Assembly (NCBI GenBank): GCA_001513385.1
Contig: LFTK01000130.1
Span: 1 to 48,175, forward strand
DNA length: 48,175 nucleotides
Direction of reading: 5' to 3'
Origin: Clostridiales bacterium DTU064
GTDB lineage: Bacteria > Bacillota > Clostridia > Oscillospirales > CAG-272
Positions 355-48,175 of the stretch are shown here, piece by piece (position 1 is the stretch's first letter; every line of letters begins with the position of its first letter). The position numbers and the translations under genes are program-made. A model generated the notes under the pieces. That model saw nothing but the letters and a program-made list of their open reading frames with translations, searched no databases and was not told where the DNA came from.

Positions 355-1341
355 ATGCTCACAGAAACAAAAATTGCGAGTATAGCGAGTTTGTTCACAA
401 ATAACATTACATCTGTTAAAAATCTTAATGGATTTCATAACGCGATATATGAAGTAAGCGGAGATATTACTTTTATTCTCCGTGTTGCAGAGGGTAAACG
501 TGAAGAACAAACAAATAGCGAAATAGATTTTTTGAGATACCTCCATAAAAACTTAGTTCCAGTAGCACCACCCATAGCATCATTACAAAATAAATATGTT
601 TATTTAGTGGTTGTTGATGGTAAATACTATACGGTTTCTGCCTATCAGAAAGCGAAAGGAAAAGATTGCTGGTCAAGAGGCATTGATGGTAATGATCAAT
701 TTATAATTATTGGTCAAACATTGGGGAGAATGCACCGGTTATCTATGTTGTATAACTGCAATAAAGTGACCAAACGAAGGCAGTGGGACGAAAACTCACA
801 TTTAGTAAAGGCACAGTGTATTCTCCGCAATTACAACACCGATCTTTCGGATAAGTTTAATTCATACATATCGTTAATGCGCAGATTTCCTAGGAAGAAA
901 AGCAGTTTTGGGCTTGTTCATGGTGATTTTTTGTTTTCGAATTATTTCTTTGATGATGATAACAATATATTCATATTCGACTTCGATGAGTGTGAATACT
1001 CATGGTTCATTTACGACATAGCAGTATGTATGTACTATTATCTGCTTGGCGCTGATCCAACAGAGCTTCATGAGAAAGTGGAAGAGGCAGAGGACATGTT
1101 CTTCCACATTATGTCGGGTTATGTAATGGAGTATGAGCTGGATATAGAATGTCTACGAAACATTGATTTATTCTTTCAACTCCGAGACTATGTTTTACTT
1201 TCAAGCATTCTGGAAAGCTCGGCAAATAACCTAAGTAGCTGGAGTAAAAGTTTCGTTGAAAATGCCACGGGTCGTTTGTTAGGCGGAAAGCCGTTCATAC
1301 AGGTTGATTTTGAAAGAGTGTATAAGATGGTGCGCAGGTGA
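355..1341 (+). CDS. phosphotransferase of the APH / choline-kinase / homoserine-kinase-II fold (putative small-molecule kinase)
   Basis: 328-aa ORF. Catalytic-loop motif LVHGDFLFSNYFF (HGDxxxxN) and metal-binding IFDFDE (DFD). SD-like AATGAGG upstream of the ATG. Confidence 0.75.
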   Translation: MLTETKIASIASLFTNNITSVKNLNGFHNAIYEVSGDITFILRVAEGKREEQTNSEIDFLRYLHKNLVPVAPPIASLQNKYVYLVVVDGKYYTVSAYQKAKGKDCWSRGIDGNDQFIIIGQTLGRMHRLSMLYNCNKVTKRRQWDENSHLVKAQCILRNYNTDLSDKFNSYISLMRRFPRKKSSFGLVHGDFLFSNYFFDDDNNIFIFDFDECEYSWFIYDIAVCMYYYLLGADPTELHEKVEEAEDMFFHIMSGYVMEYELDIECLRNIDLFFQLRDYVLLSSILESSANNLSSWSKSFVENATGRLLGGKPFIQVDFERVYKMVRR

Positions 1342-9722: not shown

Positions 9723-10184
9723 ATGACCACGAAACGACGTAACAACATCATCTCAACAATTCATCGCGTTGTCACCAGTGAACACGGAGAAAATTACTCG
9801 ATTAACGGCTGTGCAAAATATGTCATGGAGTGCCTTGGTGAAAAGAATTATGATTATTGGTTTTTCACCGGAATTACCGGAGACTTGTTTACACAGCACT
9901 ACAGTTACACAAACTTTGTAGCTGAATCTGTGTCCGACTATTTGTTTGAGGAGGACCCCGCCCGCTTTGTTGAAGAAACATTTGCTAAATGCGGATACGC
10001 TGCCACGTTTGTATCAAGCGAGGAATTAAAGAATAATACTGATATGTATCTGCAAATGCTAACAGAATACATCTATCGGGGCATCCCTGTAATCGGTGGG
10101 AACATGAGAAATGTGTTTGTCGGATATGAAGACTACGGTAAAGTTCTGCTTCAGCTTACTACACTATATAAGAGTAAACTGTAA
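9723..10184 (+). pseudogene. truncated paralogue of the C-terminal sensor domain of the AraC regulator at 20299-21744
   Basis: 153 aa. The blocks ECLGEKNYDYWFFTGITGD / FAKCGYAATFV / RGIPVIG / VFVGYEDYGKVLL align colinearly with KGLGEDCDKAMLTAISGEG / SALGWKAKYIT / RGFPVLV / VYFGYEDDGRKII of the AraC protein. The ORF stops where the homologue continues for more than 200 aa. Confidence 0.45.
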
Positions 10185-10203
10185 GGGCGGGGAGGTGAAA
10201 TAT

Positions 10204-11046
10204 ATGTCACTTTTCAGTGTAGAAGAAAGAAAAAGAATTATGGATTACATAATATCTTTCACTAAGAGTTACGAGCATATTGTAGCACTTGTCGCTGTCG
10301 GTTCGGGGTCATATGGTTTTTATGATGAGTTATCCGATCTTGATTTTGTAATAGCCATTGACAGTAATGAAAACATGGAAATGGTTATGGAATATGTAAA
10401 GTCACAGCTTGATAAATGCCTGAACTATATATACTTTAAGCAAAGTCCCCAGAAAAGGCTCCAAGTATATTTATCTGACAATTATCTTGAAATTGACATT
10501 GGTTACGGTGCTTACACCAGTGCAGCTGCCACTAAAAAGCATTGGAAAGTGCTTTTTGATAAGTCGGAAACAGTAGAGAAAGCAATGCGCGCCTCTTGGG
10601 AGGGGAAAATAGCTAATGAGAATGAGACAAATGAATTAAGCCAAAGACTTGCAGAGTGTTCGGACTCAGTCTGGCATAATCTGATGCTTGCTGCGGTTGC
10701 AATAAAGCGCGGGCAGTATTGGCGTGCATATACGGAACTTGAATTTGTGCGGAAATGGCTGATTGAGCTGCTTTGCTATAGGTACTCCCTTGATTCCGAC
10801 CGGAACAGAGAAGTGGATAAACTCCCCGAAGCTGAACTATCTGTACTCAACAAAACACTTGTTTCAAGTTTGAATAAAGACGCACTTTGGAGAAGTCTCG
10901 ATGCACTTGTTGATGCTGTATATACTGAACTTGAAAGCTATGGTGAACGTGCGTGTATTATTGTTAACCGTCAGCAGGTAAATGAATACATAAATGCGTG
11001 CAGGAATTATAAGCTTCTCTCGGAGAGTTCTTTTAATGACGAGTAA
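10204..11046 (+). CDS. nucleotidyltransferase resembling lincosamide (Lnu) / aminoglycoside ANT(6)-type enzymes
   Basis: Start moved to the ATG at 10204 (SD GGGGAGGTG). NTase motif GSGSYGFYDELSDLDF. The C-terminal helical region (WHNLMLAAVAIKRGQYWRAYTELEFVRKWLIELL) resembles the LnuB segment NLWLMGINVLKRGEYARSLELL, quoted from memory. Confidence 0.65.
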   Translation: MSLFSVEERKRIMDYIISFTKSYEHIVALVAVGSGSYGFYDELSDLDFVIAIDSNENMEMVMEYVKSQLDKCLNYIYFKQSPQKRLQVYLSDNYLEIDIGYGAYTSAAATKKHWKVLFDKSETVEKAMRASWEGKIANENETNELSQRLAECSDSVWHNLMLAAVAIKRGQYWRAYTELEFVRKWLIELLCYRYSLDSDRNREVDKLPEAELSVLNKTLVSSLNKDALWRSLDALVDAVYTELESYGERACIIVNRQQVNEYINACRNYKLLSESSFNDE

Positions 11047-11408
11047 ACGGGTATTTTCAGTTGTTTTACGAAGATTTGACGCCGGGATATTTCTTTAAAA
11101 AAAGCGGAATTATTTTGAAATGAGCGGGTGAGCAGTTATATAGATAATATCCCGGAAAACAACAATAATCCCCCTGAAGGTTAACATGAGACCTCATTGT
11201 CATATAAATTAAAGCGAAAAGAGTGGGAAAATGATGGAATGTCTGAGATTATTAAACTCGCAGGGCGAATGGAAGATAGACACAGACTTTCAGGGAACGA
11301 GTAAAAAGATAAAAAAAGCAAATATAAAGAACACCGGAACGATGAATTAATAAAATATAAGGCAGGCTTAATATTTACATATATTAAACAAATGATAAAG
11401 GTGAATCT

Positions 11409-12767
11409 ATGGCAATAACTTATAAAGAAATAGACACAGAACTTCTCGAAAATATAACGGTAAAATACGGTGAATGGGCTAAAAAGCACATTCACATAGG
11501 AAGCGACAGCTTTTCGCTTGCCGCAATATTCGACGATATACCGGTTGGTTTTATTTCTACATATATACGGAATCTTGACGAACCTCTCGCAGAAGAAAAA
11601 GACGCATACATTGATGTTATCGAGGTGGATAAAGAATTCCGCCGGAAGGGCATTGCGGCTGAGTTGATTTCACGAACCGAGGTGTGGGCAAAAGAAGAAG
11701 GACTTTTGCAAATACGTGCGTGGAGCAATCAAAGTAAAGTTGGAGCAATAAAGATGTGGCGAAGCCTTGGCTACGGGCTTTGTCCTGCGAAAATCTGGAT
11801 TGAATGGTGCCATGAAATTGTTGACGGATACTATGTTGTAAAACAGTTGAATCCAAAAAATCCATACCCCGAAATAACAAAACTGATAAAAAAGGATTTA
11901 CGCAGCGCTACATCAAAACCGATAGGGGACTTCCGGCTTACCCGTGCGAAAAGCGGTGTTTATGTATATAAGTGTTTGTATGATGGAAGCCCCGCAGTTG
12001 TCAAGTATTTTGAAAATGAAAGCGACAGGCGTGAAATCTTAAACTACCGGATATTAACTCGACACAATATTCCGACTATTGATGTGCTGGCGCTTGGCAC
12101 AGCAACTCTTGTGATGGAAGATATATCCGCATCAGACGATTGGCGGCTTGGGGTGGAGGATGATTTTTATGATGTTGATGTTACGAAATGCCTTGCAAAG
12201 TGGTATTTTACGTTTCATGAAAACGGTACATCCGTTTCAGAGCTTGAAAGCTTATTTTTTGAATATGATAGCCTGACGAAAGAGAACTTCATAATACTAA
12301 AAGAAAAATTTCCAGAAGCCAGGGAACTCTTTGATTTTGTTCTGGCACATTACGATAAGTTACGTAAGTTGCTCTATAAACCCGCCTTTACACTTGCATA
12401 TAACGATTTCCACTGGTCGAATTTTGTCGTTCGTAAGGACAAGACGTCAGCGATGATGATTGACTTCAACCTAATGGGAAAAGGGTACAGATATTCTGAT
12501 TTTCAAAATGTATGCGGTTCATTATCAGAAGAAGCAAAGTCGGCATTTATCCATGAATATGAGCGTTTATATAAGGAAAAGCATGGCCATTCACGCTCTA
12601 ATGATGAGCTGACTGAAAAGCAAATAGCAAATGTAGCGGGTAAATTATACGAGCTTGTCGTTGCATTTTTAGAAAGGGATACCTTCCCGGAGTGGGCTGA
12701 AGCCGTCAGAAACGAAGCCCAAGATGGGTCACTTTTAGCAGAAACAAAAAAACTGCTGTCGGAATAG
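11409..12767 (+). CDS. two-domain protein: N-terminal GNAT acetyltransferase fused to a C-terminal APH-type kinase
   Basis: 452 aa. GNAT acetyl-CoA-binding region (VDKEFRRKGIAAELI). Kinase catalytic loop YNDFHWSNFVV and MIDFNLMGKGYRYSDF. Confidence 0.75.
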   Translation: MAITYKEIDTELLENITVKYGEWAKKHIHIGSDSFSLAAIFDDIPVGFISTYIRNLDEPLAEEKDAYIDVIEVDKEFRRKGIAAELISRTEVWAKEEGLLQIRAWSNQSKVGAIKMWRSLGYGLCPAKIWIEWCHEIVDGYYVVKQLNPKNPYPEITKLIKKDLRSATSKPIGDFRLTRAKSGVYVYKCLYDGSPAVVKYFENESDRREILNYRILTRHNIPTIDVLALGTATLVMEDISASDDWRLGVEDDFYDVDVTKCLAKWYFTFHENGTSVSELESLFFEYDSLTKENFIILKEKFPEARELFDFVLAHYDKLRKLLYKPAFTLAYNDFHWSNFVVRKDKTSAMMIDFNLMGKGYRYSDFQNVCGSLSEEAKSAFIHEYERLYKEKHGHSRSNDELTEKQIANVAGKLYELVVAFLERDTFPEWAEAVRNEAQDGSLLAETKKLLSE

Positions 12768-34078: not shown

Positions 34079-35174
34079 ATGAAAATATTTAAAGCAATTC
34101 AAGCATTGATAAAAAGCTCTTTTTTTTCGAAAAAGGCATTTATTATCCTTCTAATTTTAAGCATATCTATCTCCTGTGCCGTATTCATTTATTTCAACAC
34201 ATCGTATTTTGATGAACTAAGAAGTTTATTTTCATCATCGCTTGAGCTTCACAGCGTTATCATTACATTCCCTGAAAATGTGGATTATAAAAGCATAGAA
34301 TCAGCCCTTGAGGTGCTCGACCACGATTTTTGCGAGTACATTATACTGGGTTATAATATAAACTATCGAAGAAATCCTTATAGTATAAATAATATTTGCT
34401 CTTTTGTTCCGGTCCGGATTAACCCTTATACATTTCTTTACTCAACGTCAACATGGGAGATATTTGAAAAAGAACCTGAGCCGGGTCACACATATTTAAG
34501 CGCCCAAATATTTTCAGATATAAAGGCAAAACGACCATATTTAGGTCAAACCTTTTCGTTAGGTGATGTGGAAGGCCGTAGGGAGTACATATTTGACGAC
34601 AGAATCGCGATTGACAATTTTGAAATGATAGTGTCCCTCGATGATTTTATAACTTACGATAAAGTTAGTTTTTTGGTATACAGTTATTCTGAGGGCACTC
34701 CCCTTTCCGTGATAGTTAAAACTAACGAGAAGTTAGAAGAGCTTTTCCCGGGAGTTGAGTGCGAAATAAAAAGAGGACTGCCTGAATCAAAAAAAAGGCG
34801 ATTACTATTCAAACATTTCCTATTTATCAATTTTTATGTTCGCATGCGTCGTAAGCTGTGGGATCATATATATTTACATAGTAGGAGAGCGTAAAAAAGA
34901 TTTTTCGGTCATGCGTCTTTTCGGTATAAAGCGGCACCATGTGTTTTTATCAATAATGCTTGAGCTTTTCATATATAACTTTATTGCCTATGCCATAACG
35001 CTGTCTTTATTCATTGCTTGGTGGCTTATAAGTAACGGGAACGTATCAATTTGGCTGCACATAAAAGATGCTCTTTTCATTATCGGTTTATTGTCTATAT
35101 TTTGTTTTATAACAAGCATAATCCTTGCCCTATATTTATCACGCAAGATACCATCCGCTTATAAAACAATGTAA
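34079..35174 (+). pseudogene. FtsX-like ABC permease, frameshifted
   Basis: Track ORFs 34079-34894 and 34836-35174 are in different frames. The shift is near the A8 run at about 34786-34793. The C-terminal part carries FtsX-type TM helices (..ERKKDFSVMRLFGIKRHHVFLSIMLELFIYNFIAY..). Confidence 0.6.
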
Positions 35175-35188
35175 AATTTTGAGGTTTA

Positions 35189-36407
35189 ATGATGACGGAA
35201 GTTAAAACAAAAACACCTGAAAAGCAACGCTTTGCATCATTTTTCAAAATACTAAATATTGAAGCTCTTCATATAAGGTTAATATTAAAGAAAAATAAAA
35301 CAATATATCTGATGCTCATCATTGAGCTTACTCTTTTAGCCTTTTCTTTAAGTACTGTTGTATCAAGCCTGTTCGTCGATATTTACAGGAAATACAGGTA
35401 TCTTGACAGAGAAATGGGACAGGATATTGCTGTTCTCTGTATAGACAGCTCTATTGATGATACGCTATTGATGCAAATCGAATACGATGGATATATAGAC
35501 CTTGTTAATGAAATAAGAGAAATAAACGGAATCACAAATGCAGGGTTTATCATAAATAACTGGGATACTGTAAAAGGCGGTGTTTCTACTGAAATACGGA
35601 TTTATCATGCATTTATCTTAGATTCAATTAGTCAGCCTTTGTCTGAGGGGAGATGGCTAAACACAGAAAGCGGAGAGCAAAATCCTCCCGAATGTGTTAT
35701 TGGCGGAGAACTTACAGATGTTTATTCAATCGGTGATATAATTCAATGCTCCGAAGGAAGGAAATATAAAGTAATCGGGAAACTTACAAAACAATTCTAC
35801 GTGCTGTCGACAGATACAAGTTCAAATAAACATTATAGTATTTCATATTTTCTTGATAATAAAGATAATGTTATTATAACAACTGATAAAAACCAAAAAG
35901 CCAGTACTACAGGTTCACTTCTTATTGAATATGATAAATCAATTTCCTTAAATGAATTAAGGGTACTCCTTTCACGTTATGGCATACTTTTTCGTTTGAT
36001 GATATGTACAATAACGCAAAATACGATATATTGAAAAAAATAAAAGACTCATTCCCATATTTAGCTTCAATTCTCGTTTCATCAATTATTATTTCAACGG
36101 GAGGGTTTTAATATCATTTCAGCGGAACATAAAAAATTATGCCATCCTGTCGCTGTATGGACAACGAAAGAGACAAATCATTATATCAATTATTTTTGCT
36201 TATTTAGTAATCTTAATTTTATCGTATTTCCTTGGGTGTATTGCTTATAAAATTAACACTTCTACAGAGCCCATCCCTGATCCAATTACATACGAGGGAT
36301 ATATTGCCACAGGCATTGTCTTTTCAATAATATTAATCATAAATTGTATAATTATTTCCGCTGTTTTTCATCGCTCGCCCCTTTCAATATATATTGAAAA
36401 CAAATAA
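35189..36407 (+). pseudogene. second FtsX-like ABC permease, multiple frameshifts
   Basis: ORF 35189-36034 ends prematurely. Downstream frames continue with ..NNAKYDILKKIKDSFPYLASILVSSIIIS.. and ..NIKNYAILSLYGQRKRQIIISIIFAYLVILILSYFLGCIAYK...AVFHRSPLSIYIENK*. Confidence 0.5.
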
Positions 36408-36456
36408 TGCGTATGTAATATAAAAGTATTATTTTATAATTATAATGGAGAAACAC

Positions 36457-36885
36457 ATGATTAAGCTTGAGGAAGTAACGAAAAATACCGCATATCAAAG
36501 GACAGGGATTTTACAGCGCTGAAAGGCATCAATTTATCGATAAATCAAGGAGTATTTGTCGCTATCACGGGAAAATCCGGCGCCGGCAAATCGACACTTT
36601 TACATATAATCGGCTGCATTGATAATGTATCGGGGGGCAGATATGAGCTTGACGGGCGGGATATAAGCAGTCTTGGCGACGCGAAACTTTCCGAAATACG
36701 AAACTCTTACTTCGGCTTTGTCCTGCAGGATTTCGCGCTTATAAACGATATGACGGCTGCTGAAAACATAATTGATACCCGTGTTTTTCTCAAAACGTCC
36801 GATGCGCGGCATATCTGAGAGGGTAAAAGCACTCTTAACAGAGGTGGGTTTGCCTGAAATGGCAAATAAAAAGGTGAAATTATAA
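36457..36885 (+). pseudogene. MacB/LolD-type ABC ATPase: two frameshifts and truncated before the LSGGQ signature
   Basis: MIKLEEVTK, then a shift at an A5 run, then KYRISKDRDFTALKGINLSINQGVFVAITGKSGAGKSTLLHIIG (Walker A)...FGFVLQDFALINDMTAAENI. A further shift gives ..ERVKALLTEVGLPEMANKKVKL*. No signature motif or Walker B follows. Confidence 0.7.
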
Positions 36886-37343
36886 CTTAACCGATTTTTT
36901 AACGTCATTATAGCTTCCTGAAATAAAAATAGATAATAAAATGCTTTATAGTATAGAGTATGTCATGCCGATTGATAATTGCCTTAAAGCGGTGTATTGA
37001 CTAAAAGTTGATTATATATCAGGAGAGTATGAAGCGTGGTATACTCCGTTAAGACATTTAAACGTGCCGCGTTGAATGGCTTATCTCTTGTTATGTGATA
37101 CTTTATATCCTGTACGCACTATGTTTGGGGTTAATTAATAAATTAAAACACAACTCCACGACACTGAACAGGTCTGCAGATAAATCAGTGTTTTTTTATT
37201 ATTGTAATTTGTAAATACCTTAAGAGGTTTATATAACATGGTCAGTCAACGATTAAGGAAAAGGATTGGGGAAGATGTACGATAGGATGACAGGCACTTC
37301 ATTTCGGTTAAATCACGTCGGGTTACTTGATTCTGCTTTATGA

Positions 37344-37398
37344 GTCCTGTTCCTGCTACTTTTTCTCTCACTGTTCAATATGTATTGTAGCGCTACAT
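37344..37398 (+). repeat. copy C of the repeat family
   Basis: GTCCTGTTCCTGCTACTTTTTCTCTCACTGTTCAATATGTATTGTAGCGCTACAT. It ends 108 nt upstream of the ORF at 37507. Confidence 0.8.
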
Positions 37399-37506
37399 AA
37401 GTACAATAGTAATATTTACATGTGGTGTTGACAACAAGCATATAATGGAATTAGATATAAACTATTATTATAAATAGGTGTTGCTATGAAATAACGCTCA
37501 CTTCTT

Positions 37507-38275
37507 TTGTTGATAACAATCGCTATAGTTGTTGCAGTTAACATAACAATGATACTCGTAATGAATGCAGGTGAGACTGAAACACAAAACACCGATAATG
37601 AAACAGAAGAATGTTTAGAAATAGAAATTGAATACGAATGGCCTGCTGCCGACTATGACCGCTGGGCCGGTGGTCGTAGTTCTAGTATAAGTTATACTCC
37701 TTCTCCGCTTGACGAGGTTTATAAAGAGTCTGAGATGGTTGTTGAAGTTGTAATAACAGAATAACTTGGTGAATCAGTAAGTGATGGACATTATTTTGAC
37801 TTTACGTATTTTAAAGCTAAAATTTAAAAACATACAAAAACACTACAGGAATTAAACAAGAAGAAGTAATAATAGCGCAAAGAGGTTGCTCTGAGATGCT
37901 TTATTGCTCTTGGTATCCGCTATATGCCCCTGGAAATCGCATGATAGTTGCCCTTATGCCATTAAAACCATTTAATATTGAAAACATTCTATATGAAGAC
38001 GCATATTTTGTCTATTACGGCTATTTAACAACGTTTTACTTATGCCAGTAAAAAGGCGTAGATTATATCATAAAAATACACGATCCTTATTATTTTGATT
38101 TATATAAACCTGTAGAAGATGAAAAACTAATATCCGAGATATCAGAGAAATTTATCAAAGATGACCCTGTTTGGATTGAAGAACCTGAGGTGAAAGAATA
38201 CAACATACCAGTGTTATTTAATAATATAACTACCAGCGAAAGCGTTGATAAGTATATTGAAAGTGTTGTGAAATA
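37507..38275 (+). pseudogene. hypothetical secreted/membrane-anchored protein gene with nonsense and frameshift lesions
   Basis: The N-terminal TM ORF (85 aa) ends at TAA 37762-37764. Protein-like reading resumes (LGESVSDGHYFDFTYFKAKI), shifts frame near 37830 (..GIKQEEVIIAQRGCSEMLYCSWYPLYAPGNRMIVALMPLKPF..), and crosses a second in-frame TAA at 38049-38051. It ends ..DKYIESVVK*. Confidence 0.4.
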
Positions 38276-38550
38276 AAAAAATTACCATATAAATGTAAAA
38301 TGCATTAAAAAGAAACAGAGTTATAAATGCGAAAAGATTATTATATATTCTAAACTAACTATTTCTCTGTTTCTTTTTTTAATGTGCGCAATAATGTCTA
38401 CTACTACGCTTTGTCATTCGGGAAAAATACCTTTTGTTAAAACATTTGACTCGGATTTTTGGACAAGTCATGCACATTTTACAGAAGCCAGTGATGAACG
38501 CTGGAGTGTTGATGAATTAGAACATACTATTTTTATTTATTCAGTCATTA

Positions 38551-38590
38551 AGTACAGATGTCCCATATGGGATTAATCTGTACTTTTTTT
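38551..38590 (+). terminator. Rho-independent terminator
   Basis: AGTACAGAT-N16-ATCTGTACT followed by T7. The T-tract overlaps the start of the right inverted repeat. Confidence 0.55.
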
Positions 38591-38631
38591 ATGCTCTATC
38601 CGTTGGCCACCCCAACATTTAGTATAGAACC
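38583..38631 (-). repeat. right copy of the 49-bp inverted repeat (partner at 24646-24694)
   Basis: The plus strand reads CTTTTTTTATGCTCTATCCGTTGGCCACCCCAACATTTAGTATAGAACC. It lies 239 bp upstream of the cas3 ATG. Confidence 0.85.
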
Positions 38632-38790
38632 GAGTTTAAAAATGCCGTAGGAGGTTATTTTGTATATATGGGAATGCAGACACATCAGTGTGCTGGTTCT
38701 TTATGTATATAAAGTGTTTGAAATGATTATCTTATTAAAATTATTATTAATTACAAAATACAATAAATTGACATAAAACCCCCATATATG

Positions 38791-38819
38791 TTGACAATAT
38801 TTGTATGAGATGATAAAAT
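38791..38819 (+). promoter_or_regulatory. candidate sigma-70-type promoter of the cas operon
   Basis: TTGACA (38791-38796), 17-nt spacer, TAAAAT (38814-38819), about 50 nt upstream of the cas3 ATG. Confidence 0.45.
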
Positions 38820-38869
38820 TGTATAAACGAAAATATTAGAAAACATTAAATAGAGTGTGAATTTAAAAA

Positions 38870-41008
38870 ATGATATATTATGCTCATAAATCTGATGACG
38901 GAAGACGTCAAAAAATGAAAGAACATGCCACCGCTGTGGCTGAGCTTACTGGAAAGTTCGCAGGCCCATTCGGCCTATCAGAATATGGCAGAATAATCGG
39001 ACTGCATCATGATGATGGAAAATATACTCAAGCATTTCAGGAAAGGCTTGATGGCGGCAAAATAAAGTACGAGCACTCGTCTGCCAGTGCTTATTTGCTA
39101 GCAAAAAAAGGAATTATATTGCGTGACCCGGTGTATATGATGCTTGCGCATATTGTTGCAGGTCATCACAGCGGGCTTCCGGATACAGGTTCCATGAACT
39201 CAAGCGAAAATGACAGTACGTTTTTCGCTAAGTATATACGAAGAGAAAAAATGCCGTATGACTTTGGTGACTATGAGTCCGAGCTTGGGGTAATACCTGA
39301 ACATTCGCCGCTACCTCAGAAGTTTGCGAACAATTACAGCCTGCAATTTCTCGGACGCATGCTTTTTTCTGCGCTCGTTGACGCGGATTTTCTCGATACG
39401 GAAAAGTTTATGTCAAACGGTGCGGTAAAGCGCAATAGTGGCGACGATATCCGCACATTAAAGCAAAAATTTAACGCGTATATGAAAAAAGAATTCTCTT
39501 GTGTGTCAGGTCCTCTTGATCAAAAACGCGCAGAAATTCTTTCTGCGTGCCGGTCGGCAGCGCAGGGTGAACGTGGAATATACAGGCTGACAGTACCGAC
39601 AGGAGGAGGTAAGACTCTATCGTCTCTTGCATTTGCTCTTGAACATGCAACAAAATACAATCTGCGGCGGATTATATATGTAATTCCTTACATAAATATC
39701 ATTAGTCAGACCGTTGATAAGTTTTCTGAAATTTTAGGGGCTGATAATGTTCTTGCCCACTATAGCACAGCCGAATATCCATTACCGGAGGGTGAGGAAC
39801 GCTCGCCGGCTGAGCTTGCTGCGGAAAATTGGGACAGGCCTGTGGTTGTCACAACAAATGTACAATTTTTCGAGTCGCTTCATTCCTGCCGCACGTCACG
39901 CTGCCGGAAACTTCACAACATTGTAAACAGCGTGCTGATATTTGACGAAGCCCAGATGCTGCCGGTGGGATACCTGCATTCTTGCATGCGCGCGATAGAA
40001 GAGCTGGCGAAAAATTATGGCTGCACGGCAGTGCTTTGCACCGCCACGCAGCCATCCCTTGATGGCCTTCTTTCTTCAGGAGTACGTGAAATTTGCCCCG
40101 ATGTTCCGGGGCTTTATGACTTTTTCCGGCGTGTCACATATAAGGTGATCGGTGAGCACAGTGACAAAGATATTGCGCAAATGATAAACTCATGCAAATC
40201 TGCGCTGTGCGTTGTAAATTCCCGGCGCGGGGCGCGTTCGATATATGGACTGATAAAAGGCGAGGGTACTTATCACCTGTCGACATATATGACACCATCG
40301 AGCATTGCAAAAAAGCTTGAAGAAATCAGGGATAGATTAAAAGAAAATCTCCCCTGTATAGTTGTTTCAACATCACTTGTTGAAGCGGGTGTTGATCTTG
40401 ATTTTCCTTATGTATTCCGTGAGGAAGCCGGGCTTGACTCGATTATTCAGGCGGGCGGGCGCTGCAATCGCGAGGGTAAAAGAGATGTTGCCGACAGCGT
40501 TGTAACGGTATTCAGACGGAACGAAAAAAATCCGAGGTTTGACGCTGTACGCGCCATAACATCTCGGATTTGCGAAGATTTTGATGATATAGCATCACCT
40601 GAAGCAATCAGAAAATATTTCAAGGAGCTCTACTATATCAACCCGTCTGATACAACGGATAAGCTTGACAGCAAAGCAATAATACCCATGCTTGAGAAGG
40701 GGTCGTTTATGTATCGCAGTGTGGATGAAAAGTACAAGCTAATTGATAAAGAGCAAAGACAGGTGCTTATACCGAACGAGAATAATGCAAAGCTGTGCGA
40801 TATGATTCGCAAGAATATACGCAACCTTTACATAATGAGACAAGCCATGAGAGACTGCGTTTCTCTTTATGAAGACGAATTTAGGGAGATTGCTAAAACC
40901 GGCGTGCTCACAGACTGCGGTGACATTGCAATTCTCGAAGACCCCGAATGTTATGATGAGAATATCGGCCTTATAGTCAAGGATACAGGGGATGCTCTTT
41001 TTGCGTAA
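38870..41008 (+). CDS. cas3: type I CRISPR-associated helicase-nuclease Cas3 (HD domain + SF2 helicase)
   Basis: 712 aa. HD-domain motifs (H..HDDGKY, HHSG), Walker A VPTGGGKT, DEAQ box (IFDEAQM), C-terminal Cas3 region. First gene of the canonical I-C order. Confidence 0.93.
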   Translation: MIYYAHKSDDGRRQKMKEHATAVAELTGKFAGPFGLSEYGRIIGLHHDDGKYTQAFQERLDGGKIKYEHSSASAYLLAKKGIILRDPVYMMLAHIVAGHHSGLPDTGSMNSSENDSTFFAKYIRREKMPYDFGDYESELGVIPEHSPLPQKFANNYSLQFLGRMLFSALVDADFLDTEKFMSNGAVKRNSGDDIRTLKQKFNAYMKKEFSCVSGPLDQKRAEILSACRSAAQGERGIYRLTVPTGGGKTLSSLAFALEHATKYNLRRIIYVIPYINIISQTVDKFSEILGADNVLAHYSTAEYPLPEGEERSPAELAAENWDRPVVVTTNVQFFESLHSCRTSRCRKLHNIVNSVLIFDEAQMLPVGYLHSCMRAIEELAKNYGCTAVLCTATQPSLDGLLSSGVREICPDVPGLYDFFRRVTYKVIGEHSDKDIAQMINSCKSALCVVNSRRGARSIYGLIKGEGTYHLSTYMTPSSIAKKLEEIRDRLKENLPCIVVSTSLVEAGVDLDFPYVFREEAGLDSIIQAGGRCNREGKRDVADSVVTVFRRNEKNPRFDAVRAITSRICEDFDDIASPEAIRKYFKELYYINPSDTTDKLDSKAIIPMLEKGSFMYRSVDEKYKLIDKEQRQVLIPNENNAKLCDMIRKNIRNLYIMRQAMRDCVSLYEDEFREIAKTGVLTDCGDIAILEDPECYDENIGLIVKDTGDALFA

Positions 41009-41215
41009 AAACGGCTGAGAACAATAGTCTCCGCCGCGATTTTTTTAGACATAATAATCCCTTAAATATTTCAACCCGCATGCAAAACTCAGCATGACGC
41101 TTTAAGTATACATAAAAATTTGCTTATGTCAATATCAAAATATTAAATATGTCTTGACATGGAAATAAATGTATACTATAATGATCCCATAAATGAAAAA
41201 ATAAGGAGGTATTGC

Positions 41216-41875
41216 ATGCCAAAGCCAATAAGAATCCGAGTGTGGGGTGACTATGCGCTTTTTAGCCGGCCCGAGCTTAAGGCCGAAAGATATTCGTACG
41301 ACATAATCACACCATCCGCGGCAAGGGGTATATATGATGCGATATATTACCACCCGGGGATGAGATGGCAGATAAAGCGGATATTTGTGGAAAAGCCGAT
41401 TCGTTTTACCAACGTGCGACGCAACGAGGTTACAAAGAAAATACTTGCTTCCGATTTGTTTTATGCTGCAAACGGCTCGGGAAAACCAATCTACATTGAC
41501 CGATCAGAAGCTATCGCCCAGCGCGCGGCAACTATACTGCGAGACGTATCGTATGTGATTGAAGCGAATTTTGTTCTGATACCGGAAAAAATGGGCGCCG
41601 ATGACAGTGCGGATAAGTTTTTTGCCATCTTTTCAAACAGGCTGAAAACAGGTAAATGCTTTACCCAGCCATATCTTGGTTGCAGAGAATTTCCGGCATA
41701 TTTTGAGCCTTTTCCAGATGACAGAGAACCAAAGACAATTGCTGAGGACCGGGATTTTGGAATCATGCTTTATGATATGGACTACTCCGAGGAAGGGAAT
41801 ATTAAGCCGACATACTTTCATGCCGTAATGAAAAACGGTGTTGTTGACCTGCGGGATTGCGAGGTGCTGAGATGA
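41216..41875 (+). CDS. cas5: type I-C Cas5 (Cas5c/Cas5d, pre-crRNA endoribonuclease)
   Basis: Start at ATG 41216 (SD AAGGAGG at 41203-41209). [51 protein letters not shown] matches the conserved Cas5d N-terminus. Confidence 0.9.
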
Positions 41876-43620
41876 TACTTCAGTCACTTGTGAAATATTA
41901 CGAAGCGCTTGAGCGTCAGGGGAAAATAACAAAGCCGGGGTGGCTTCCGCAAAGTGTGTCATATGCTGTTGTGCTCGACAGGACAGGCTCGGTTAAAAAT
42001 GTTGTGAGCCTAAAAAGAGAAGAGCAGCGCGGTAAAAAAAGCGTGCTTGTACCGTTGCAAATCAACGTTCCGGAATATGTTGTGCGCTCAAGCGGGAAAA
42101 GAGCCAATTTCATGTGCGATAATGCCGCATACATATTCGGCTTTGGTGACAAACCTGAAGATGACGCTGAAAAATTTGCGCTTGCACGAGAGCTGCACTT
42201 GAATGTACTAAAAGGCGCTGTATCACCTGCCGCAGATGCTGTGCGCGGCTTTTTTGAAACGTGGAGCACTGAGAATTTTGACTCACTCGGGCTTGATGAT
42301 AACTATAAAAAGGATTTATTGAGCGGTGCAAATCTTGTCTTTGCCGACGAGTACCTGCATTACCTGCACGACGACGAGGAAATAAGGGTTGCGTGGGAAA
42401 AATACTACTTTTCAGCAGGTAACGCGCCAAAAGAGCGCTGCCTTGTAACAGGTAATACCGATAAAATAGCTATACTTCACAACAAGATTAAAGGGGTTGC
42501 AGGCGCGCAATCGTCAGGGGCTTGCCTTGTTGGTTTTAACGCACCTGCTTTTGAGTCGTATGGCAAGGACGGTGGTCAGGGGCTTAACGCGCCTGTCGGC
42601 AGTTATGCGATGTATGCCTACACAACTGCGCTCAACAGCTTGCTCGCCGGAGCAAAAAAGACTCGAATTGGCGACTGCACAGTTGTATGGTGGTCTCTTG
42701 ACGCATCCGAAGCTGCTGAAAAGATGTTTGGTGACGCACTTTTCGGTGACAGCGGTGAGGACAGGCTTGATGACATCATGAAAAACATTTCCGAGGGTAA
42801 AATGCCTTCTGGAGATGTAGATTTAAATACCGATTTTTGTGTGCTTGGCCTTTCCCCAAACGCAGCACGCCTTTCGGTGAGGTTTTTCTGGCGCAACACT
42901 TTCGGCACACTGCTTCAAAATGTTGCGGCACACTATAAAAGACTTGATGTAGTTAAGCCGGACTTTGCAAAGAAATACCTCACACCGTATTTTATGGCTC
43001 TTGAAACCGTCTCACCTAAATCAAAAGACAAGTCGGCATCACCCATACTTATAGGAGCGCTTTTAAACTCAATTTTAAACAACTGGCGCTATCCGGAGAT
43101 GCTTTATGAATCGGTGCTGACACGCATACGCGCAGAACATGAAGTTACACCCGGCAAAGCGGCGATTATAAAGGCATATCTGCTGAAAAATAAAAATAAC
43201 GAAAAATATAGGGAGGTTCTTTCAATGGCGTTAAACGAGGAAAGCAATAATCAAGCATACGTTTTAGGAAGGTTGTTTTCGGTGCTTGAGCAGGCTCAAT
43301 ATGCGGCGAATGGATCTTCAAATATAAAAGAAAAGTACCTGACCTCAGCCTGCGCAACACCCGGTGTGGTATTCCCAAGCATGTTAATGATGGCGTCGCA
43401 CCACACGGCCAAGGCCGACAACGGCGAAATTATTGACCGCAAGATAAGGGATTTATTAAACAAACTCGACGGTGGCACGCCGTTCCCGGCAAGACTTGAT
43501 AATACGGATCAGGGTCTGTTCCTTTTAGGGTATTATCACGAAACACAAAAAAGGTTTAACAATATTAAGATATATAAAGAAAAAAATAAAAATACTGAGA
43601 ATAATGAAAGCGAGGGTTAA
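41872..43620 (+). CDS. cas8c: type I-C large subunit Cas8c (Csd1)
   Basis: ATGA overlap with the cas5 stop. [24 protein letters not shown] is the typical Cas8c N-terminus. Size is about 582 aa and the position is between cas5 and cas7. Confidence 0.9.
43225..43620 (+). CDS. cas11: candidate internally translated small subunit Cas11c (nested in frame in the cas8c 3' end)
   Basis: In-frame ATG at 43225 preceded by GGGAGG (43211-43216). It would give 131 aa ([25 protein letters not shown]...). Internal Cas11 translation from cas8c is established for type I-C systems. Confidence 0.45.
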
Positions 43621-43623
43621 AAA

Positions 43624-44502
43624 ATGAGCGAACCGATTAAGAACAGATATGAGTTTTCAATCTTTTTTGATGTTGAAAACGGCAACCCGAACGGCGATCC
43701 CGATGCGGATAATATGCCGCGTATTGACCCTGAAACAGGTTATGGTATCGTGACAGATGTCTGTATAAAGCGCAAAATACGCAACTATGTTGATACGGTT
43801 ATGGAGGGGAAGCCCGGTTATGATATTTACATAAAGGACGGGGTACCGCTTAATGTAAAAGATAAAAAAGCATACGTCGCCGTGGTCGGAAAAGACAAAC
43901 TCGACAAAAAAGATCCCGAGATTGATTTAAAACTACGCGACTGGATGTGCGCAAATTTCTACGATATCCGTACATTTGGCGCTGTTATGACTACATTTGT
44001 CAAAGATAAACTCAACTGCGGGCAGGTACGCGGGCCGGTTCAGATAGGGTTTGCACGCAGCATAGACCCGATTGTGCGGCAGGAAGTCACGATAACACGT
44101 GTGGCTATTACAACTGAAGAAGATTTTGAAAAGAAAGATACCGAGATGGGGCGCAAGCACATTATTCCGTATGCTCTTTACCGTGCGGACGGATTTATAT
44201 CGGCAAATCTGGCGCGTCGGGTTACAAAATTCAGTGAAGATGACCTTAAACTGCTTTGGGACGCGATTATAAATATGTTTGAAGAAGACCACAGTGCTGC
44301 AAGAGGGAAGATGGCTGTTAGAAAGCTTGTGATATTTAAACATAAGGACGAGCTTGGCAATGCTCCTTCGCACCGCACGCTTGATCTTGTTTGCGCAAAG
44401 AAGCGTGAAGGTGTTGACGCCCCACGCTCGATAAACGATTATGAAATAAAAATCAATTATGATGCTTGCCCTGAGGGTGTCGAGATAATATGTCGGGAAT
44501 AA
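43624..44502 (+). CDS. cas7: type I-C Cas7 (Csd2) backbone subunit
   Basis: 292 aa. NRYEFSIFFDVENGNPNGDPDADNMPRIDPETGYGIVTDVCIKRKIRNYV is the hallmark Csd2 N-terminus. Confidence 0.92.
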   Translation: MSEPIKNRYEFSIFFDVENGNPNGDPDADNMPRIDPETGYGIVTDVCIKRKIRNYVDTVMEGKPGYDIYIKDGVPLNVKDKKAYVAVVGKDKLDKKDPEIDLKLRDWMCANFYDIRTFGAVMTTFVKDKLNCGQVRGPVQIGFARSIDPIVRQEVTITRVAITTEEDFEKKDTEMGRKHIIPYALYRADGFISANLARRVTKFSEDDLKLLWDAIINMFEEDHSAARGKMAVRKLVIFKHKDELGNAPSHRTLDLVCAKKREGVDAPRSINDYEIKINYDACPEGVEIICRE

Positions 44503-45164
44503 ATCGTGAAGAAACGGATTTACAGATATCGGGACTGCAGCATTTCTCTTTTTGCCGGCGACAGTGGGCGCTGATTCATATAGAACAGCAGTGGGCTGAC
44601 AACTATTTTACCATTGATGGCAGTATAATGCACGAAGCGGCTGATGATCCTTATTTTACCGAAAAGCGGGGAGGGTTGATCGTCAGCCGCTCCATGCCGG
44701 TGAGATCGGAGCGGCTGTGCGTAAGCGGGAAATGCGATGTAGTTGAGTTCAGGGAGTCACCCGACGGCGTACCGATAGTTGGTCGTGAAGGGAAGTGGTT
44801 GCCCGTTCCGGTTGAATATAAGCGTGGTAGAAGTAAGGAGATTGATGCTGACCGGCTGCAGCTTTGTGCTCAGGCAATATGCCTTGAAGAAATGCTATGT
44901 TGCAAAAGAATTGATGAAGCTTATATCTATTATGCCGAAACAAAACGTCGTGAGAAGGTAATGCTGACTGTTGAGCTTCGAGCAAAAGTTGAATCTATGC
45001 TCATCGAGATGAGAGAGCTTTATAACCGCGGATATACACCTCATGTTAAACCCACAAAAAAGTGTGCATCATGTTCACTAAAAGATATTTGTCTGCCTAA
45101 GCTGCACAAATATGTGTCCGCAAAGGACTATACATCTCAAATTTGGACGGTGAGCACATCATGA
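44490..45164 (+). CDS. cas4: Cas4 (RecB-like nuclease with 4-Cys cluster)
   Basis: 224 aa. N-terminal Cys (FSFCRRQW), D...EYKRG nuclease motifs, C-terminal CASCSLKDIC. Confidence 0.9.
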   Translation: MSGINREETDLQISGLQHFSFCRRQWALIHIEQQWADNYFTIDGSIMHEAADDPYFTEKRGGLIVSRSMPVRSERLCVSGKCDVVEFRESPDGVPIVGREGKWLPVPVEYKRGRSKEIDADRLQLCAQAICLEEMLCCKRIDEAYIYYAETKRREKVMLTVELRAKVESMLIEMRELYNRGYTPHVKPTKKCASCSLKDICLPKLHKYVSAKDYTSQIWTVSTS

Positions 45165-45184
45165 GAAAGTTGTTAAACACTCTT
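45161..45184 (+). pseudogene. cas1: cas1 remnant (first 8 codons only)
   Basis: The ATG overlaps the cas4 stop (ATGA). MRKLLNTL matches the conserved I-C Cas1 start (MKKLLNTLYV...). The frame then runs RCKTIV* with no Cas1 sequence. Confidence 0.6.
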
Positions 45185-45185
45185 A

Positions 45186-45230
45186 GGTGTAAAACCATCG
45201 TTTGATGTTACCGATGCTTTAATTGTATAG
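45186..45230 (+). pseudogene. cas2: cas2 remnant (last ~14 codons)
   Basis: GVKPSFDVTDALIV* in a different frame from the cas1 head. It resembles the I-C Cas2 C-terminal tail (..GAKPSYDxxxxLIL*, recalled from Bacillus halodurans and Desulfovibrio vulgaris Cas2). Confidence 0.5.
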
Positions 45231-45401
45231 CGCGAACCTATAGTTCACATATATATACCGACAGATTCGCGTGTTATTATCGATACATATTAACACTTTT
45301 TATGTTTTTTAGTATTAGTTTAAGTACTAAATACAAAGTAGAATCTATGATATGCTCAAATTATTACTACAATAATATATAATTATTTGTGCATATTTGC
45401 T
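45231..45401 (+). promoter_or_regulatory. CRISPR leader (AT-rich)
   Basis: 171-bp AT-rich stretch between the cas2 tail and the first repeat. The degenerate repeat lies at the opposite end of the array. Confidence 0.5.
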
Positions 45402-46104
45402 GTCATCCCCCGCACGGGGGATGTGGATTGAAATAGGAACAATTACGTCACTGATTATGGTTTTAGTTAGTCATCCCCCGCACGGGGGATGTGGATTGAA
45501 ATTGTCAATGCTTAAATTGTCATTATAACCATTAGGTCATCCCCCGCACGGGGGATGTGGATTGAAATGTATGTTGAAATCAAAGGAAATCCTTTTGATA
45601 TAGTCATCCCCCGCACGGGGGATGTGGATTGAAATGGATAAGATGCAATTGTGCTTCCTATCATTCCCGTCATCCCCCGCACGGGGGATGTGGATTGAAA
45701 TTGGAGTAATGCAACAATGCCCCTATCACCAACAGGTCATCCCCCGCACGGGGGATGTGGATTGAAATGCCAGATGGAATGTATCTGGCTGTTGCGCATA
45801 ACGTCATCCCCCGCACGGGGGATGTGGATTGAAATAACGAACATGGAGAAAACCATGAAACCGTGGTACGTCATCCCCCGCACGGGGGATGTGGATTGAA
45901 ATAAGAATTGTTCAAAACCGGCACTCCTCATATAGAGTCATCCCCCGCACGGGGGATGTGGATTGAAATATTGACAAGTTACAGCGTTATAAATTGCTGG
46001 TGATGTCATCCCCCGCACGGGGGATGTGGATTGAAATTACATATTTACTCCTTTCTCCCGCCCTTTAGCCGGTCATCCCCCGCACGGGGGATGTGGATTA
46101 AGTA
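45402..46104 (+). CRISPR. type I-C CRISPR array, 11 repeats / 10 spacers
   Basis: 33-nt repeat GTCATCCCCCGCACGGGGGATGTGGATTGAAAT at 45402, 45470, 45536, 45603, 45669, 45736, 45803, 45870, 45937, 46005 and 46072. Spacers are 33-35 nt and all unique. The last repeat is degenerate at its 3' end (..GTGGATTAAGTA). The palindromic core CCCCCGCACGGGGG and the ATTGAAAT tail are typical of I-C. Confidence 0.97.
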
Positions 46105-48027: not shown

Positions 48028-48175
48028 GTCCGAAGACGGTGTTGTGACAATACTTGACTCAATGCTCATGGTTAATTAAAGAAGCAACCAACAAACAACA
48101 AAGACAAGGATAGCCGCCCCGCTATTCCGTACAGTAGTGGAAAGAAAGAGGCGGTTAAGCCCATAGTGCTTAACT

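What the first reader, a model, noticed from the sequence alone, without database searches (positions are those of the whole stretch)
45161..45401. Type I-C CRISPR-Cas locus whose adaptation module was removed by a clean internal deletion (cas1 head fused to cas2 tail)
cas3, cas5c, cas8c, cas7c and cas4 are all full-length and tightly coupled. Only 237 bp separate the cas4 stop (45164) from the first repeat (45402), whereas intact cas1 plus cas2 need about 1.3 kb.

The sequence still shows both breakpoints. An ATG overlapping the cas4 stop encodes MRKLLNTL, the conserved I-C Cas1 start, and the frame then collapses. One nucleotide later, in another frame, GVKPSFDVTDALIV-stop resembles the conserved Cas2 C-terminal tail. 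The leader and a 10-spacer array are retained.

The locus therefore looks interference-competent but unable to acquire spacers: a frozen array with an orphan cas4. Such a state could reflect selection against autoimmunity, repurposing for regulation, or reliance on a second cas1-cas2 in trans.
Basis: partly seen in the sequence, partly recalled or inferred. Interest (0 to 1): 0.72.

Follow-up and report, generated by a model that had tools for sequence, protein, structure and literature searches.

The report
cas1-cas2 deletion in I-C CRISPR locus
This is a real type I-C CRISPR-Cas locus in an uncultured biogas-reactor Clostridia bacterium that lost its spacer-integrating genes cas1 and cas2 through one 1,260-bp deletion; the deletion is common in nature, but it is an ordinary kind of event.

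Summary
cas3, cas5c, cas8c, cas7c and cas4 are intact. Between the cas4 stop and the first of 11 repeats lie 237 bp.

Sister contigs encode the identical Cas4 and carry full cas1c (343 aa) and cas2 at this position. Aligned to them, window ≤45183 equals cas1 nt 1-23 and window ≥45184 equals the last 47 nt of cas2 plus a 100% identical leader. Exactly 1,260 bp are missing.

The same junction occurs in 19 other contigs made by four assembly methods, including an NCBI MAG (GCA_012521505.1). Two unitigs stop exactly at the breakpoint. It is therefore a natural allele, not an artefact, and it appears to outnumber the intact allele.

The "frozen array" corollary is not established. Deletion carriers have at least four different leader-proximal spacer sets. 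Erosion of a long ancestral array, recombination, chimeric assembly and acquisition in trans all remain possible.

Two spacers match viral contigs 35/35, so the array holds genuine immune memory.

Loss of cas1-cas2 from otherwise intact loci is a known phenomenon, so this is a new member of a known kind. Interest is low to moderate.

The parts
38870..41008 (+). cas3 (712 aa; HD nuclease plus helicase)
   Evidence: TIGR01596 at 90.8 bits (cut-off 43.45) and TIGR01587 at 105.1 bits (cut-off 102.45). Called as 712 aa in most sister contigs; the MAG contig L101 has a 697-aa call.
41159..41875 (+). cas5c, the pre-crRNA endonuclease subunit. Sister contigs call the start at 41216 (219 aa).
   Evidence: TIGR01876 at 170 bits (cut-off 85). 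Start alternatives.
41857..43620 (+). cas8c/csd1, the large Cascade subunit. The ATG at 41872 gives the 582-aa form called in sister contigs.
   Evidence: TIGR01863 at 374 bits (cut-off 218.65), model positions 1-583 of 588.
43624..44502 (+). cas7c/csd2 (292 aa)
   Evidence: TIGR02589 at 327 bits (cut-off 182.25).
44490..45164 (+). cas4 (224 aa), intact. The protein is identical in intact-allele and deletion-allele contigs.
   Evidence: TIGR00372 at 125.7 bits (cut-off 65); the exact sequence occurs on 61 contigs.
45161..45183 (+). cas1 remnant: the first 23 nt of cas1c (codons 1-7 plus 2 nt). Its ATG overlaps the cas4 stop.
   Evidence: identical to L001 6559-6581, the start of a 343-aa Cas1c (TIGR03640 at 478 bits).
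45183..45184 (.). Deletion junction (CTCT|TAGG). 1,260 bp present in intact alleles (L001 6582-7841) are missing here.
   Evidence: The junction string is found in 19 other contigs. Two unitigs, L108 and L110, end exactly at 45183.
45184..45230 (+). cas2 remnant: the last 47 nt of cas2, that is 14 codons (GVKPSFDVTDALIV) plus the stop.
   Evidence: identical to L001 7842-7888. The L001 Cas2 matches TIGR01573 at 78 bits.
45231..45401 (+). CRISPR leader (171 nt, A+T-rich)
   Evidence: window 45184-45401 is 100% identical to the intact alleles L001 and L010.
45402..46104 (+). CRISPR array: 11 repeats of 33 nt (the last degenerate) and 10 spacers.
   Evidence: The repeat folds as an 8-bp hairpin followed by an 11-nt tail UGGAUUGAAAU. 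Spacer 5 matches a viral contig 34/34.

Best explanation
The window carries a natural deletion allele of a chromosomal type I-C CRISPR-Cas locus from an uncultured Clostridia bacterium of anaerobic digesters. A single 1,260-bp deletion removed cas1 from nt 24 onward and all of cas2 except its last 47 nt.

Shown:
- The deletion is real.
- It is present in many independent samples.
- It coexists with the intact allele.
- It leaves cas3-cas5c-cas8c-cas7c-cas4, the leader and the array without any disabling change.

Inferred:
- The array is still transcribed from the unchanged leader.
- Cas5c still cuts the repeats.
- Cascade and Cas3 still attack matching DNA.
- The locus cannot integrate new spacers by itself, because the Cas1-Cas2 integrase is gone.
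- Cas4 has no partner, since in type I-C it acts within a Cas4-Cas1-Cas2 complex.

The junction has no shared base. It therefore looks like an illegitimate-recombination or end-joining event next to an imperfect short repeat (TA[GG]TGTAAA).

Carriers have different arrays. The causes I consider most likely are loss of spacer blocks from a longer ancestral array, recombination between strains, and chimeric metagenome assembly. This part is not resolved.
For: Intact sister alleles exist. Contigs encoding the identical Cas4 carry cas1 (343 aa) and cas2 (108 aa as called) immediately downstream. These proteins match TIGR03640 (type I-C Cas1c, 478 bits against a cut-off of 385) and TIGR01573 (Cas2).

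Breakpoints. Window 45150-45183 equals L001 6548-6581. Window 45184 onward equals L001 7842 onward. Neither match extends past the junction. The leader is 100% identical, and cas3 to cas4 is 99.86-99.94% identical between the alleles.

Not an artefact. The junction string occurs in 19 other contigs:
- metaSPAdes-style contigs (NODE_ names): L002, L003, L004, L011.
- A MEGAHIT-style contig (k127 name): L103.
- An NCBI MAG: L101, GCA_012521505.1.
- Logan assemblies: L005-L008, L102, L104-L107, L109, L111-L113.
Unitigs L108 and L110 terminate exactly at 45183, as expected at a graph branch where both alleles are present.

Frequency. The exact Cas4 is on 61 contigs in 105 data blocks. The exact Cas1 is on 10 contigs in 14 blocks.

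Interference genes. No stop or frameshift is seen in cas3-cas4 of any deletion contig; L002/L011 carry a compensated -1/+1 indel pair in the last codons of cas8c (43570/43577). Across all contigs of both alleles there are 20 synonymous and 20 nonsynonymous SNPs.

Genuine immune memory. Window spacer 5 and the first spacer of deletion contig L004 each have perfect protospacers in IMG/VR contigs.

No other cas1 or cas2 lies in the 48-kb window.

The dependence of type I-C Cas4 on Cas1-Cas2 comes from PMC6519985.
Against: - No expression or activity data exist, so interference competence is inferred from sequence only.
- Deletion carriers differ in their leader-proximal spacers, in at least four sets. 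L002 and the L003/L101/L103 type share an older TnpB-bearing unit but have wholly different leader-side spacers. That is the pattern continued acquisition would also give.
- A SNP 265 bp upstream of the junction (44918 A/G) occurs in all four combinations with the two alleles. The deletion's history therefore involves recombination, or the contigs are partly chimeric.
- The rest of the genome could not be searched for a second cas1-cas2.
Confidence: 0.88

Rival explanations
1. The deletion is real, but the array is not frozen. Deletion carriers keep gaining spacers because a Cas1-Cas2 (with or without Cas4) encoded elsewhere in the genome, or on a mobile element, uses this leader and repeat in trans.
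For: - At least four different leader-proximal spacer sets sit behind the identical junction.
- L002/L011 and L003/L101/L103 share the TnpB-bearing unit but differ in the 13 versus 3 spacers on the leader side. This is the polarity expected of new acquisition.
- Spacer 5 is 34 nt in the window and 35 nt in L003/L101/L103, as independent capture of one protospacer would give.
- A stand-alone cas4-cas1-cas2 module with its own array exists in a related MAG (L115).
- Trans acquisition is documented for other systems (PMC8092290; 10.1101/2024.10.25.620265; 10.1101/2023.06.23.546257).
Against: - No second cas1-cas2 was found, though only 48 kb could be searched.
- A loss-only model from an ancestral array of about 30 or more spacers fits all observed spacer orders with a handful of repeat-to-repeat deletions. 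This is my own reasoning.
- Metagenome arrays are prone to chimeric assembly. Logan contigs visibly collapse arrays or run from a repeat into non-array DNA.
- Both alleles coexist in some samples, so strain mixing is expected.
Confidence: 0.2
2. The junction is an assembly collapse or mis-join, and the real genome has cas1-cas2.
For: The window may itself be a metagenome assembly. Repeat-rich CRISPR loci are error-prone, and array collapse is seen in L010 and L113.
Against: - The flanks of the junction are unique sequence, not repeats.
- The same junction appears in 19 other contigs from about 18 samples, made by different assemblers.
- Contigs run 6.5 kb upstream and into the array across the junction without a break.
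Confidence: 0.01
3. The whole locus is an inert relic on its way to loss. The interference genes are no longer used, and the deletion is simply the first visible lesion.
For: - The ratio of nonsynonymous to synonymous SNPs is not strongly skewed, at 20:20.
- The region just upstream (34079-38869) looks gene-poor or fragmented.
- A TnpB element sits inside the array in sister loci.
Against: - No stop or frameshift occurs in five genes (6.3 kb) across 19 deletion contigs, despite measurable SNP diversity.
- A 20:20 ratio is well below the roughly 3:1 nonsynonymous excess expected without selection.
- Spacers match viruses perfectly, with flanks one base away from TTC (TCC, TTA). That is what PAM-escape under active interference would leave (only two cases).
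Confidence: 0.1
4. The deletion was caused by the system itself: a self-targeting spacer directed Cas3 at cas1-cas2, and the survivor carried the deletion.
For: As far as I recall, type I-C Cas3 is known to generate deletions around a target; I did not check this in the paper library. The junction lacks microhomology.
Against: None of 49 spacers collected from the window and sister arrays matches the deleted 1,260 bp or any other part of the window. The best hit is 16 nt.
Confidence: 0.03

Closest known systems
Canonical type I-C (Dvulg) CRISPR-Cas loci, cas3-cas5c-cas8c-cas7-cas4-cas1-cas2-array, for example Bacillus halodurans and Desulfovibrio vulgaris
   Same: Same gene order and families for cas3 through cas4. 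There is no cas6. The 33-nt repeat has a hairpin and an 11-nt ...GGATTGAAAT tail, and the leader lies on the cas side of the array. Sister alleles have the complete canonical locus.
   Different: cas1 and cas2 are reduced to 23-nt and 47-nt stubs. cas4 is left without the partners it needs (PMC6519985).
CRISPR-Cas loci that lack cas1-cas2 and depend on adaptation in trans (type III-B in Flavobacterium, PMC8092290; type VI-A in Listeria, 10.1101/2024.10.25.620265; type IV-A3 on plasmids, 10.1101/2023.06.23.546257)
   Same: An effector module and array without its own integrase, with spacer content that varies between strains.
   Different: Those loci lack adaptation genes as a family-level or long-standing trait, and a donor Cas1-Cas2 has been demonstrated. 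Here the loss is a recent polymorphism within one species, the scars are visible, and no donor has been found.
Lineage-specific loss of cas1 in natural populations, for example Mycobacterium tuberculosis Beijing and deleted-DR strains (PMC5310062)
   Same: A within-species deletion removes adaptation genes, and the lineage persists and spreads.
   Different: The system is a different CRISPR type (type III-A, from my own knowledge). The M. tuberculosis deletions are larger and IS6110-associated (my recollection, not checked in the paper). Here the deletion is a small blunt internal one that spares every interference gene.

Membership tests
Type I-C CRISPR-Cas | Cas3 with a fused HD nuclease and superfamily-2 helicase | tested here: met
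   TIGR01596 and TIGR01587 both score above their cut-offs in one 712-aa protein.
Type I-C CRISPR-Cas | Subtype-specific Cascade genes cas5c, cas8c (csd1) and cas7 (csd2) | tested here: met
   TIGR01876 at 170 bits, TIGR01863 at 374 bits and TIGR02589 at 327 bits. All are above their cut-offs and cover nearly the full model.
Type I-C CRISPR-Cas | No cas6; Cas5c does the processing | tested here: met
   the five genes overlap or abut, and the operon holds no additional ORF. The processing activity itself was not tested.
Type I-C CRISPR-Cas | Repeat of about 32-33 nt with a stable hairpin and an 11-nt 3' tail ending ATTGAAA(C/T) | tested here: met
   8-bp stem, 4-nt loop, tail UGGAUUGAAAU, -15.4 kcal/mol. 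The comparison with typical I-C repeats rests on my own knowledge.
Type I-C CRISPR-Cas | Adaptation module cas4-cas1-cas2 next to the leader | tested here: not met
   cas4 is present. cas1 and cas2 survive only as 23-nt and 47-nt remnants. The feature is met in sister alleles L001, L010 and L093-L100. The window is therefore a truncated member, not a different family.
Type I-C CRISPR-Cas | 5'-TTC PAM and Cas3-dependent DNA interference | tested here: inconclusive
   Only two protospacers were found. Their 5' flanks are TCC and TTA, each one base from TTC. Activity is not testable with these tools.
Effector loci served by Cas1-Cas2 in trans | A compatible cas1-cas2 elsewhere in the same genome | not testable with these tools
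   Only 48 kb of the genome is available, and it holds none.
Effector loci served by Cas1-Cas2 in trans | New leader-proximal spacers appearing in cells that lack cas1-cas2 in cis | tested here: inconclusive
   At least four leader-proximal spacer sets lie behind the same junction. Spacer loss, recombination and chimeric assembly also explain this.

The most novel reading that the evidence does not exclude
The deletion allele is old enough to have spread worldwide in digesters and to have diversified, and its carriers still renew their arrays. They would do so either through a separate stand-alone cas4-cas1-cas2 module, an architecture seen in a related MAG (L115), or by recombining array segments from the minority of cells that keep cas1-cas2. 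That would make this species a natural case of population-level division of labour between a few "adapters" and many "interference-only" cells.
Probability: 0.15. Interest if true: 0.6.

Novelty: new member of a known kind. Interest (0 to 1): 0.3.

Why it matters
The case gives a nucleotide-exact natural example of how a type I CRISPR-Cas system loses adaptation while keeping interference. Both alleles segregate in the same communities, and the deletion allele appears to be the commoner.

That could be used to measure the cost or benefit of keeping the integrase in real microbial communities. Possible drivers include autoimmunity avoidance or free-riding on existing memory.

In practice, it warns that arrays of this organism in metagenomes cannot be assumed to record recent infections.

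It does not reveal a new mechanism or system.

Tried and rejected
- Exact 27-nt search across the cas4/cas1 boundary in species-representative genomes found nothing. The closest representative Cas4 is only 72% identical, so the species could not be named beyond Clostridia.
- The same pattern in the metagenome collection gave one locus, L011.
- Protein-level search with the short remnants is uninformative. Cas1 head E = 4.9; peptides under 20 aa cannot be scanned. DNA comparison with intact alleles replaced it.
- Self-targeting or Cas3-induced deletion: no spacer matches the window or the deleted segment. Rejected.
- The repeat was searched in IMG/VR to see whether the locus or a mini-array is virus-borne. 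No hit.
- Seven spacers were searched in IMG/VR. Five gave no hit and two gave hits.
- Rfam on the whole window found nothing.
- The promoter/terminator scan of the leader found no more than the shuffled controls.
- Logan contigs proved useless for array content. They stop in the first repeat, collapse the array, or run into non-array DNA.
- Looking up the two nearest NCBI Cas1 relatives, to see whether they came from the same MAG as the deletion allele, showed they belong to other assemblies.
- The SNP table shows haplotype mixing between alleles, but contig chimerism cannot be excluded. I did not build a phylogeny on it.

Full report
**What is in the window.** Positions 38870-45164 hold five co-directional genes that overlap or abut. 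NCBIfam assigns them, all above the curated cut-offs and over nearly the full models, as follows:
- cas3, with an HD domain and a helicase
- cas5c
- cas8c/csd1
- cas7/csd2
- cas4

From 45402 to 46104 there are 11 copies of a 33-nt repeat, GTCATCCCCCGCACGGGGGATGTGGATTGAAAT. The last copy is degenerate. The 10 spacers are 33-35 nt long. As RNA, the repeat forms an 8-bp hairpin followed by the 11-nt tail UGGAUUGAAAU, which is the type I-C layout. Exactly 237 nt separate the cas4 stop from the first repeat.

The ATG at 45161 overlaps the cas4 stop and reads MRKLLNTLRCKTIV-stop. The frame from 45186 reads GVKPSFDVTDALIV-stop.

**Is it a deletion?** I looked up contigs that encode exactly the same Cas4. 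Some of them (L001, L010, and partly L009) continue with a 343-aa Cas1 and a 108-aa Cas2. Others match the window. The L001 proteins match the type I-C Cas1c model TIGR03640 (478 bits, cut-off 385) and the Cas2 model TIGR01573.

Base-by-base comparison shows:
- Window positions up to 45183 equal L001 up to 6581, which is cas1 nt 1-23.
- Window positions from 45184 equal L001 from 7842, which is the last 47 nt of cas2 followed by the leader.
- Neither match extends past the junction.
- The missing piece is L001 6582-7841, or 1,260 bp.
- Codon 8 of the cas1 stub is a hybrid (CT from cas1, T from cas2) that still encodes Leu.
- The Cas2 tail is the last 14 codons, unchanged.
- The leader is 100% identical between alleles, and the cas3-cas4 region is 99.86-99.94% identical.

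The junction (CTCT|TAGG) shares no base between the two sides. An imperfect similarity, TA[GG]TGTAAA, lies just 3' of both breakpoints. The event therefore looks like illegitimate recombination or end joining rather than clean slippage between repeats.

**Is it an artefact?** No. The junction string is present in 19 further contigs:
- metaSPAdes-style contigs (NODE_ names) from ENA: L002, L003, L004, L011
- a MEGAHIT-style contig (k127 name) from a biogas fermenter: L103
- an NCBI MAG annotated as Clostridiales bacterium: L101, GCA_012521505.1
- many Logan assemblies

Two Logan unitigs (L108, L110) end exactly at 45183. That is what a de Bruijn graph does where both alleles are present in one sample.

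Intact alleles were found in 11 contigs. By exact-sequence counts, Cas4 is on 61 contigs in 105 data blocks, against 10 contigs in 14 blocks for Cas1. The deletion allele therefore appears to be the majority. The caveat is that short contigs can carry cas4 without reaching cas1.

**Whose locus is it?** No species-representative genome contains the sequence. The nearest representative Cas4 is 72% identical and comes from an uncultured Anaerotruncus MAG. Sample names point to bioreactor and biogas metagenomes. The remaining genes in the window are chromosomal housekeeping, transport and regulatory genes, including H+-pyrophosphatase, MatE and ABC transporter parts. There is no sign of a plasmid or prophage.

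**State of the remaining genes.** Across all contigs there is no stop or frameshift in cas3-cas4 of any deletion allele; L002/L011 carry a compensated -1/+1 indel pair (43570/43577) in the last codons of cas8c. I counted 20 synonymous and 20 nonsynonymous SNPs, fewer nonsynonymous changes than neutrality would give. The deletion occurs on several SNP backgrounds.

The SNP nearest the junction (44918 A/G) occurs in all four combinations with the two alleles. That implies recombination, or else partly chimeric contigs.

Behind the identical junction, the contigs show at least four leader-proximal spacer sets:
- AGGAAC... in the window, L002 and L011
- ATAGTAC..., then window spacer 5 plus one extra T, then AGTCACG..., in L003, L101 and L103 (three separately assembled contigs)
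- TACTATC... in L004
- GGCATCAAG... in L107 and L112

The window and L002 share only spacer 1. L002 and the L003-type arrays share an older unit that carries a TnpB insertion, but they differ completely on the leader side.

Continued acquisition would give that polarity. A loss-only history from an ancestral array of about 30 or more spacers also fits all the observed orders. Metagenome arrays are notoriously chimeric, and Logan contigs collapse arrays or run from the first repeat into foreign DNA.

The window's own array ends are corroborated. Leader-spacer 1 is confirmed by L002 and L011. Spacer 10, the terminal repeat and the trailer are confirmed by L113 and L114. I therefore cannot say whether the array is frozen. 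I can say that a simple "one frozen array" picture does not describe the population.

**Is the array a real immune memory?** Window spacer 5 matches IMGVR_UViG_3300025605_000228 over 34/34 nt, and over 35/35 for the L003 version. The first spacer of deletion contig L004 matches IMGVR_UViG_3300009658_000131 over 35/35. Neither viral contig carries the repeat (for the first).

The 5' flanks are TCC and TTA, each one base from the canonical I-C TTC. With only two cases this merely hints at PAM-escape variants.

No spacer matches the window itself or the deleted segment. That leaves the autoimmunity and Cas3-self-targeting ideas without support.

**Mechanism.**

Shown:
- cas1-cas2 are deleted in cis.
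- The leader, the array and the five other genes are intact.

Inferred from established knowledge of type I-C:
- Cas5c processes the transcript.
- Cas5c, Cas8c and Cas7 form Cascade.
- Cas3 degrades targets.
- Integration needs Cas1-Cas2.
- Cas4 works only inside the Cas4-Cas1-Cas2 complex (PMC6519985).

The locus should therefore still defend with its existing spacers but cannot add new ones by itself.

**Comparison and novelty.** CRISPR-Cas loci without cas1-cas2 are well known, as is acquisition in trans (PMC8092290; 10.1101/2024.10.25.620265; 10.1101/2023.06.23.546257). Lineage-level loss of cas1 in natural populations is also documented (PMC5310062).

The added content here is a precisely mapped, high-frequency, segregating deletion in an uncultured digester bacterium. 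That makes it a new member of a known kind.

The most novel reading still open is that deletion carriers keep renewing their arrays through a trans integrase or through recombination with the intact minority. I give this about 0.15. A related MAG with a stand-alone cas4-cas1-cas2 module plus array (L115) shows that such modules exist, but nothing links one to this genome.

Noticed in passing
L002 2781-4109 (also L011; the start is visible in L003, L101 and L103): An IS200/IS605-type element sits between two repeats of the CRISPR array in sister loci. It encodes a 347-aa TnpB (NF040570, 199 bits) and has subterminal hairpins (CCCATGACTTTAGTCATTGGG and CCCCTGACTTTAGTCATGGGG). The window's array lacks it.
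   Followed up: partly
L115 3281-5993 (GCA_022791685.1, JAAVZO010000008.1): This is the reciprocal architecture in a related Clostridiales MAG. cas4-cas1-cas2 (Cas1 72% identical to the L001 Cas1) and an 8-repeat I-C-type array sit between housekeeping genes. No cas3, cas5, cas8 or cas7 is nearby.
   Followed up: partly
L092 3363-3400 and L120 4664-4701: Both perfect (35/35) protospacers found in IMG/VR are preceded by trinucleotides one base away from the canonical I-C TTC (TCC and TTA). This could reflect PAM-escape phages or a relaxed PAM. There are only two cases.
   Followed up: partly
window 45669-45735 versus L003, L101 and L103 spacer 2: The same protospacer is stored as a 34-nt spacer in the window and as a 35-nt spacer (extra 3' T, which matches the virus) in three other contigs. 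The cause is either independent capture or a 1-nt loss.
   Followed up: no
window 34079-38869: Upstream of cas3, three adjacent ORFs (34079-36034) look like pieces of one FtsX/MacB-type permease. The next 2.8 kb (36035-38869) has no ORF of 90 aa or more on the cas strand and is about 31-35% G+C. It may be decayed or non-coding.
   Followed up: no
window 48064-48175: The last approximately 110 nt diverge completely from sister contig L002 but are 99.95% shared with L113 (SRR2017753). This is a strain-specific insertion or replacement, not a chimeric window end.
   Followed up: partly
L010 5583-5615; L113 3387-3486; L096, L098 and L005 after the first repeat: Logan contigs collapse the array to one or two repeats, or run from the first repeat straight into non-array, phage-like DNA. 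This is presumably because 34-35-nt spacers share 31-mers with co-occurring phage genomes. Array content from such contigs should not be trusted.
   Followed up: partly
L102, L104, L105 and L106, first repeat: The leader-proximal repeat carries a G-to-A change in the hairpin loop (CCCCCACACGGGGG) in four contigs of one project. All four are deletion alleles.
   Followed up: no
window 355-1341 and 10111-12767: Several genes resemble antibiotic-modifying enzymes: an APH-family phosphotransferase, a weak streptomycin-adenylyltransferase-like protein, and a GNAT-APH fusion of 452 aa.
   Followed up: no
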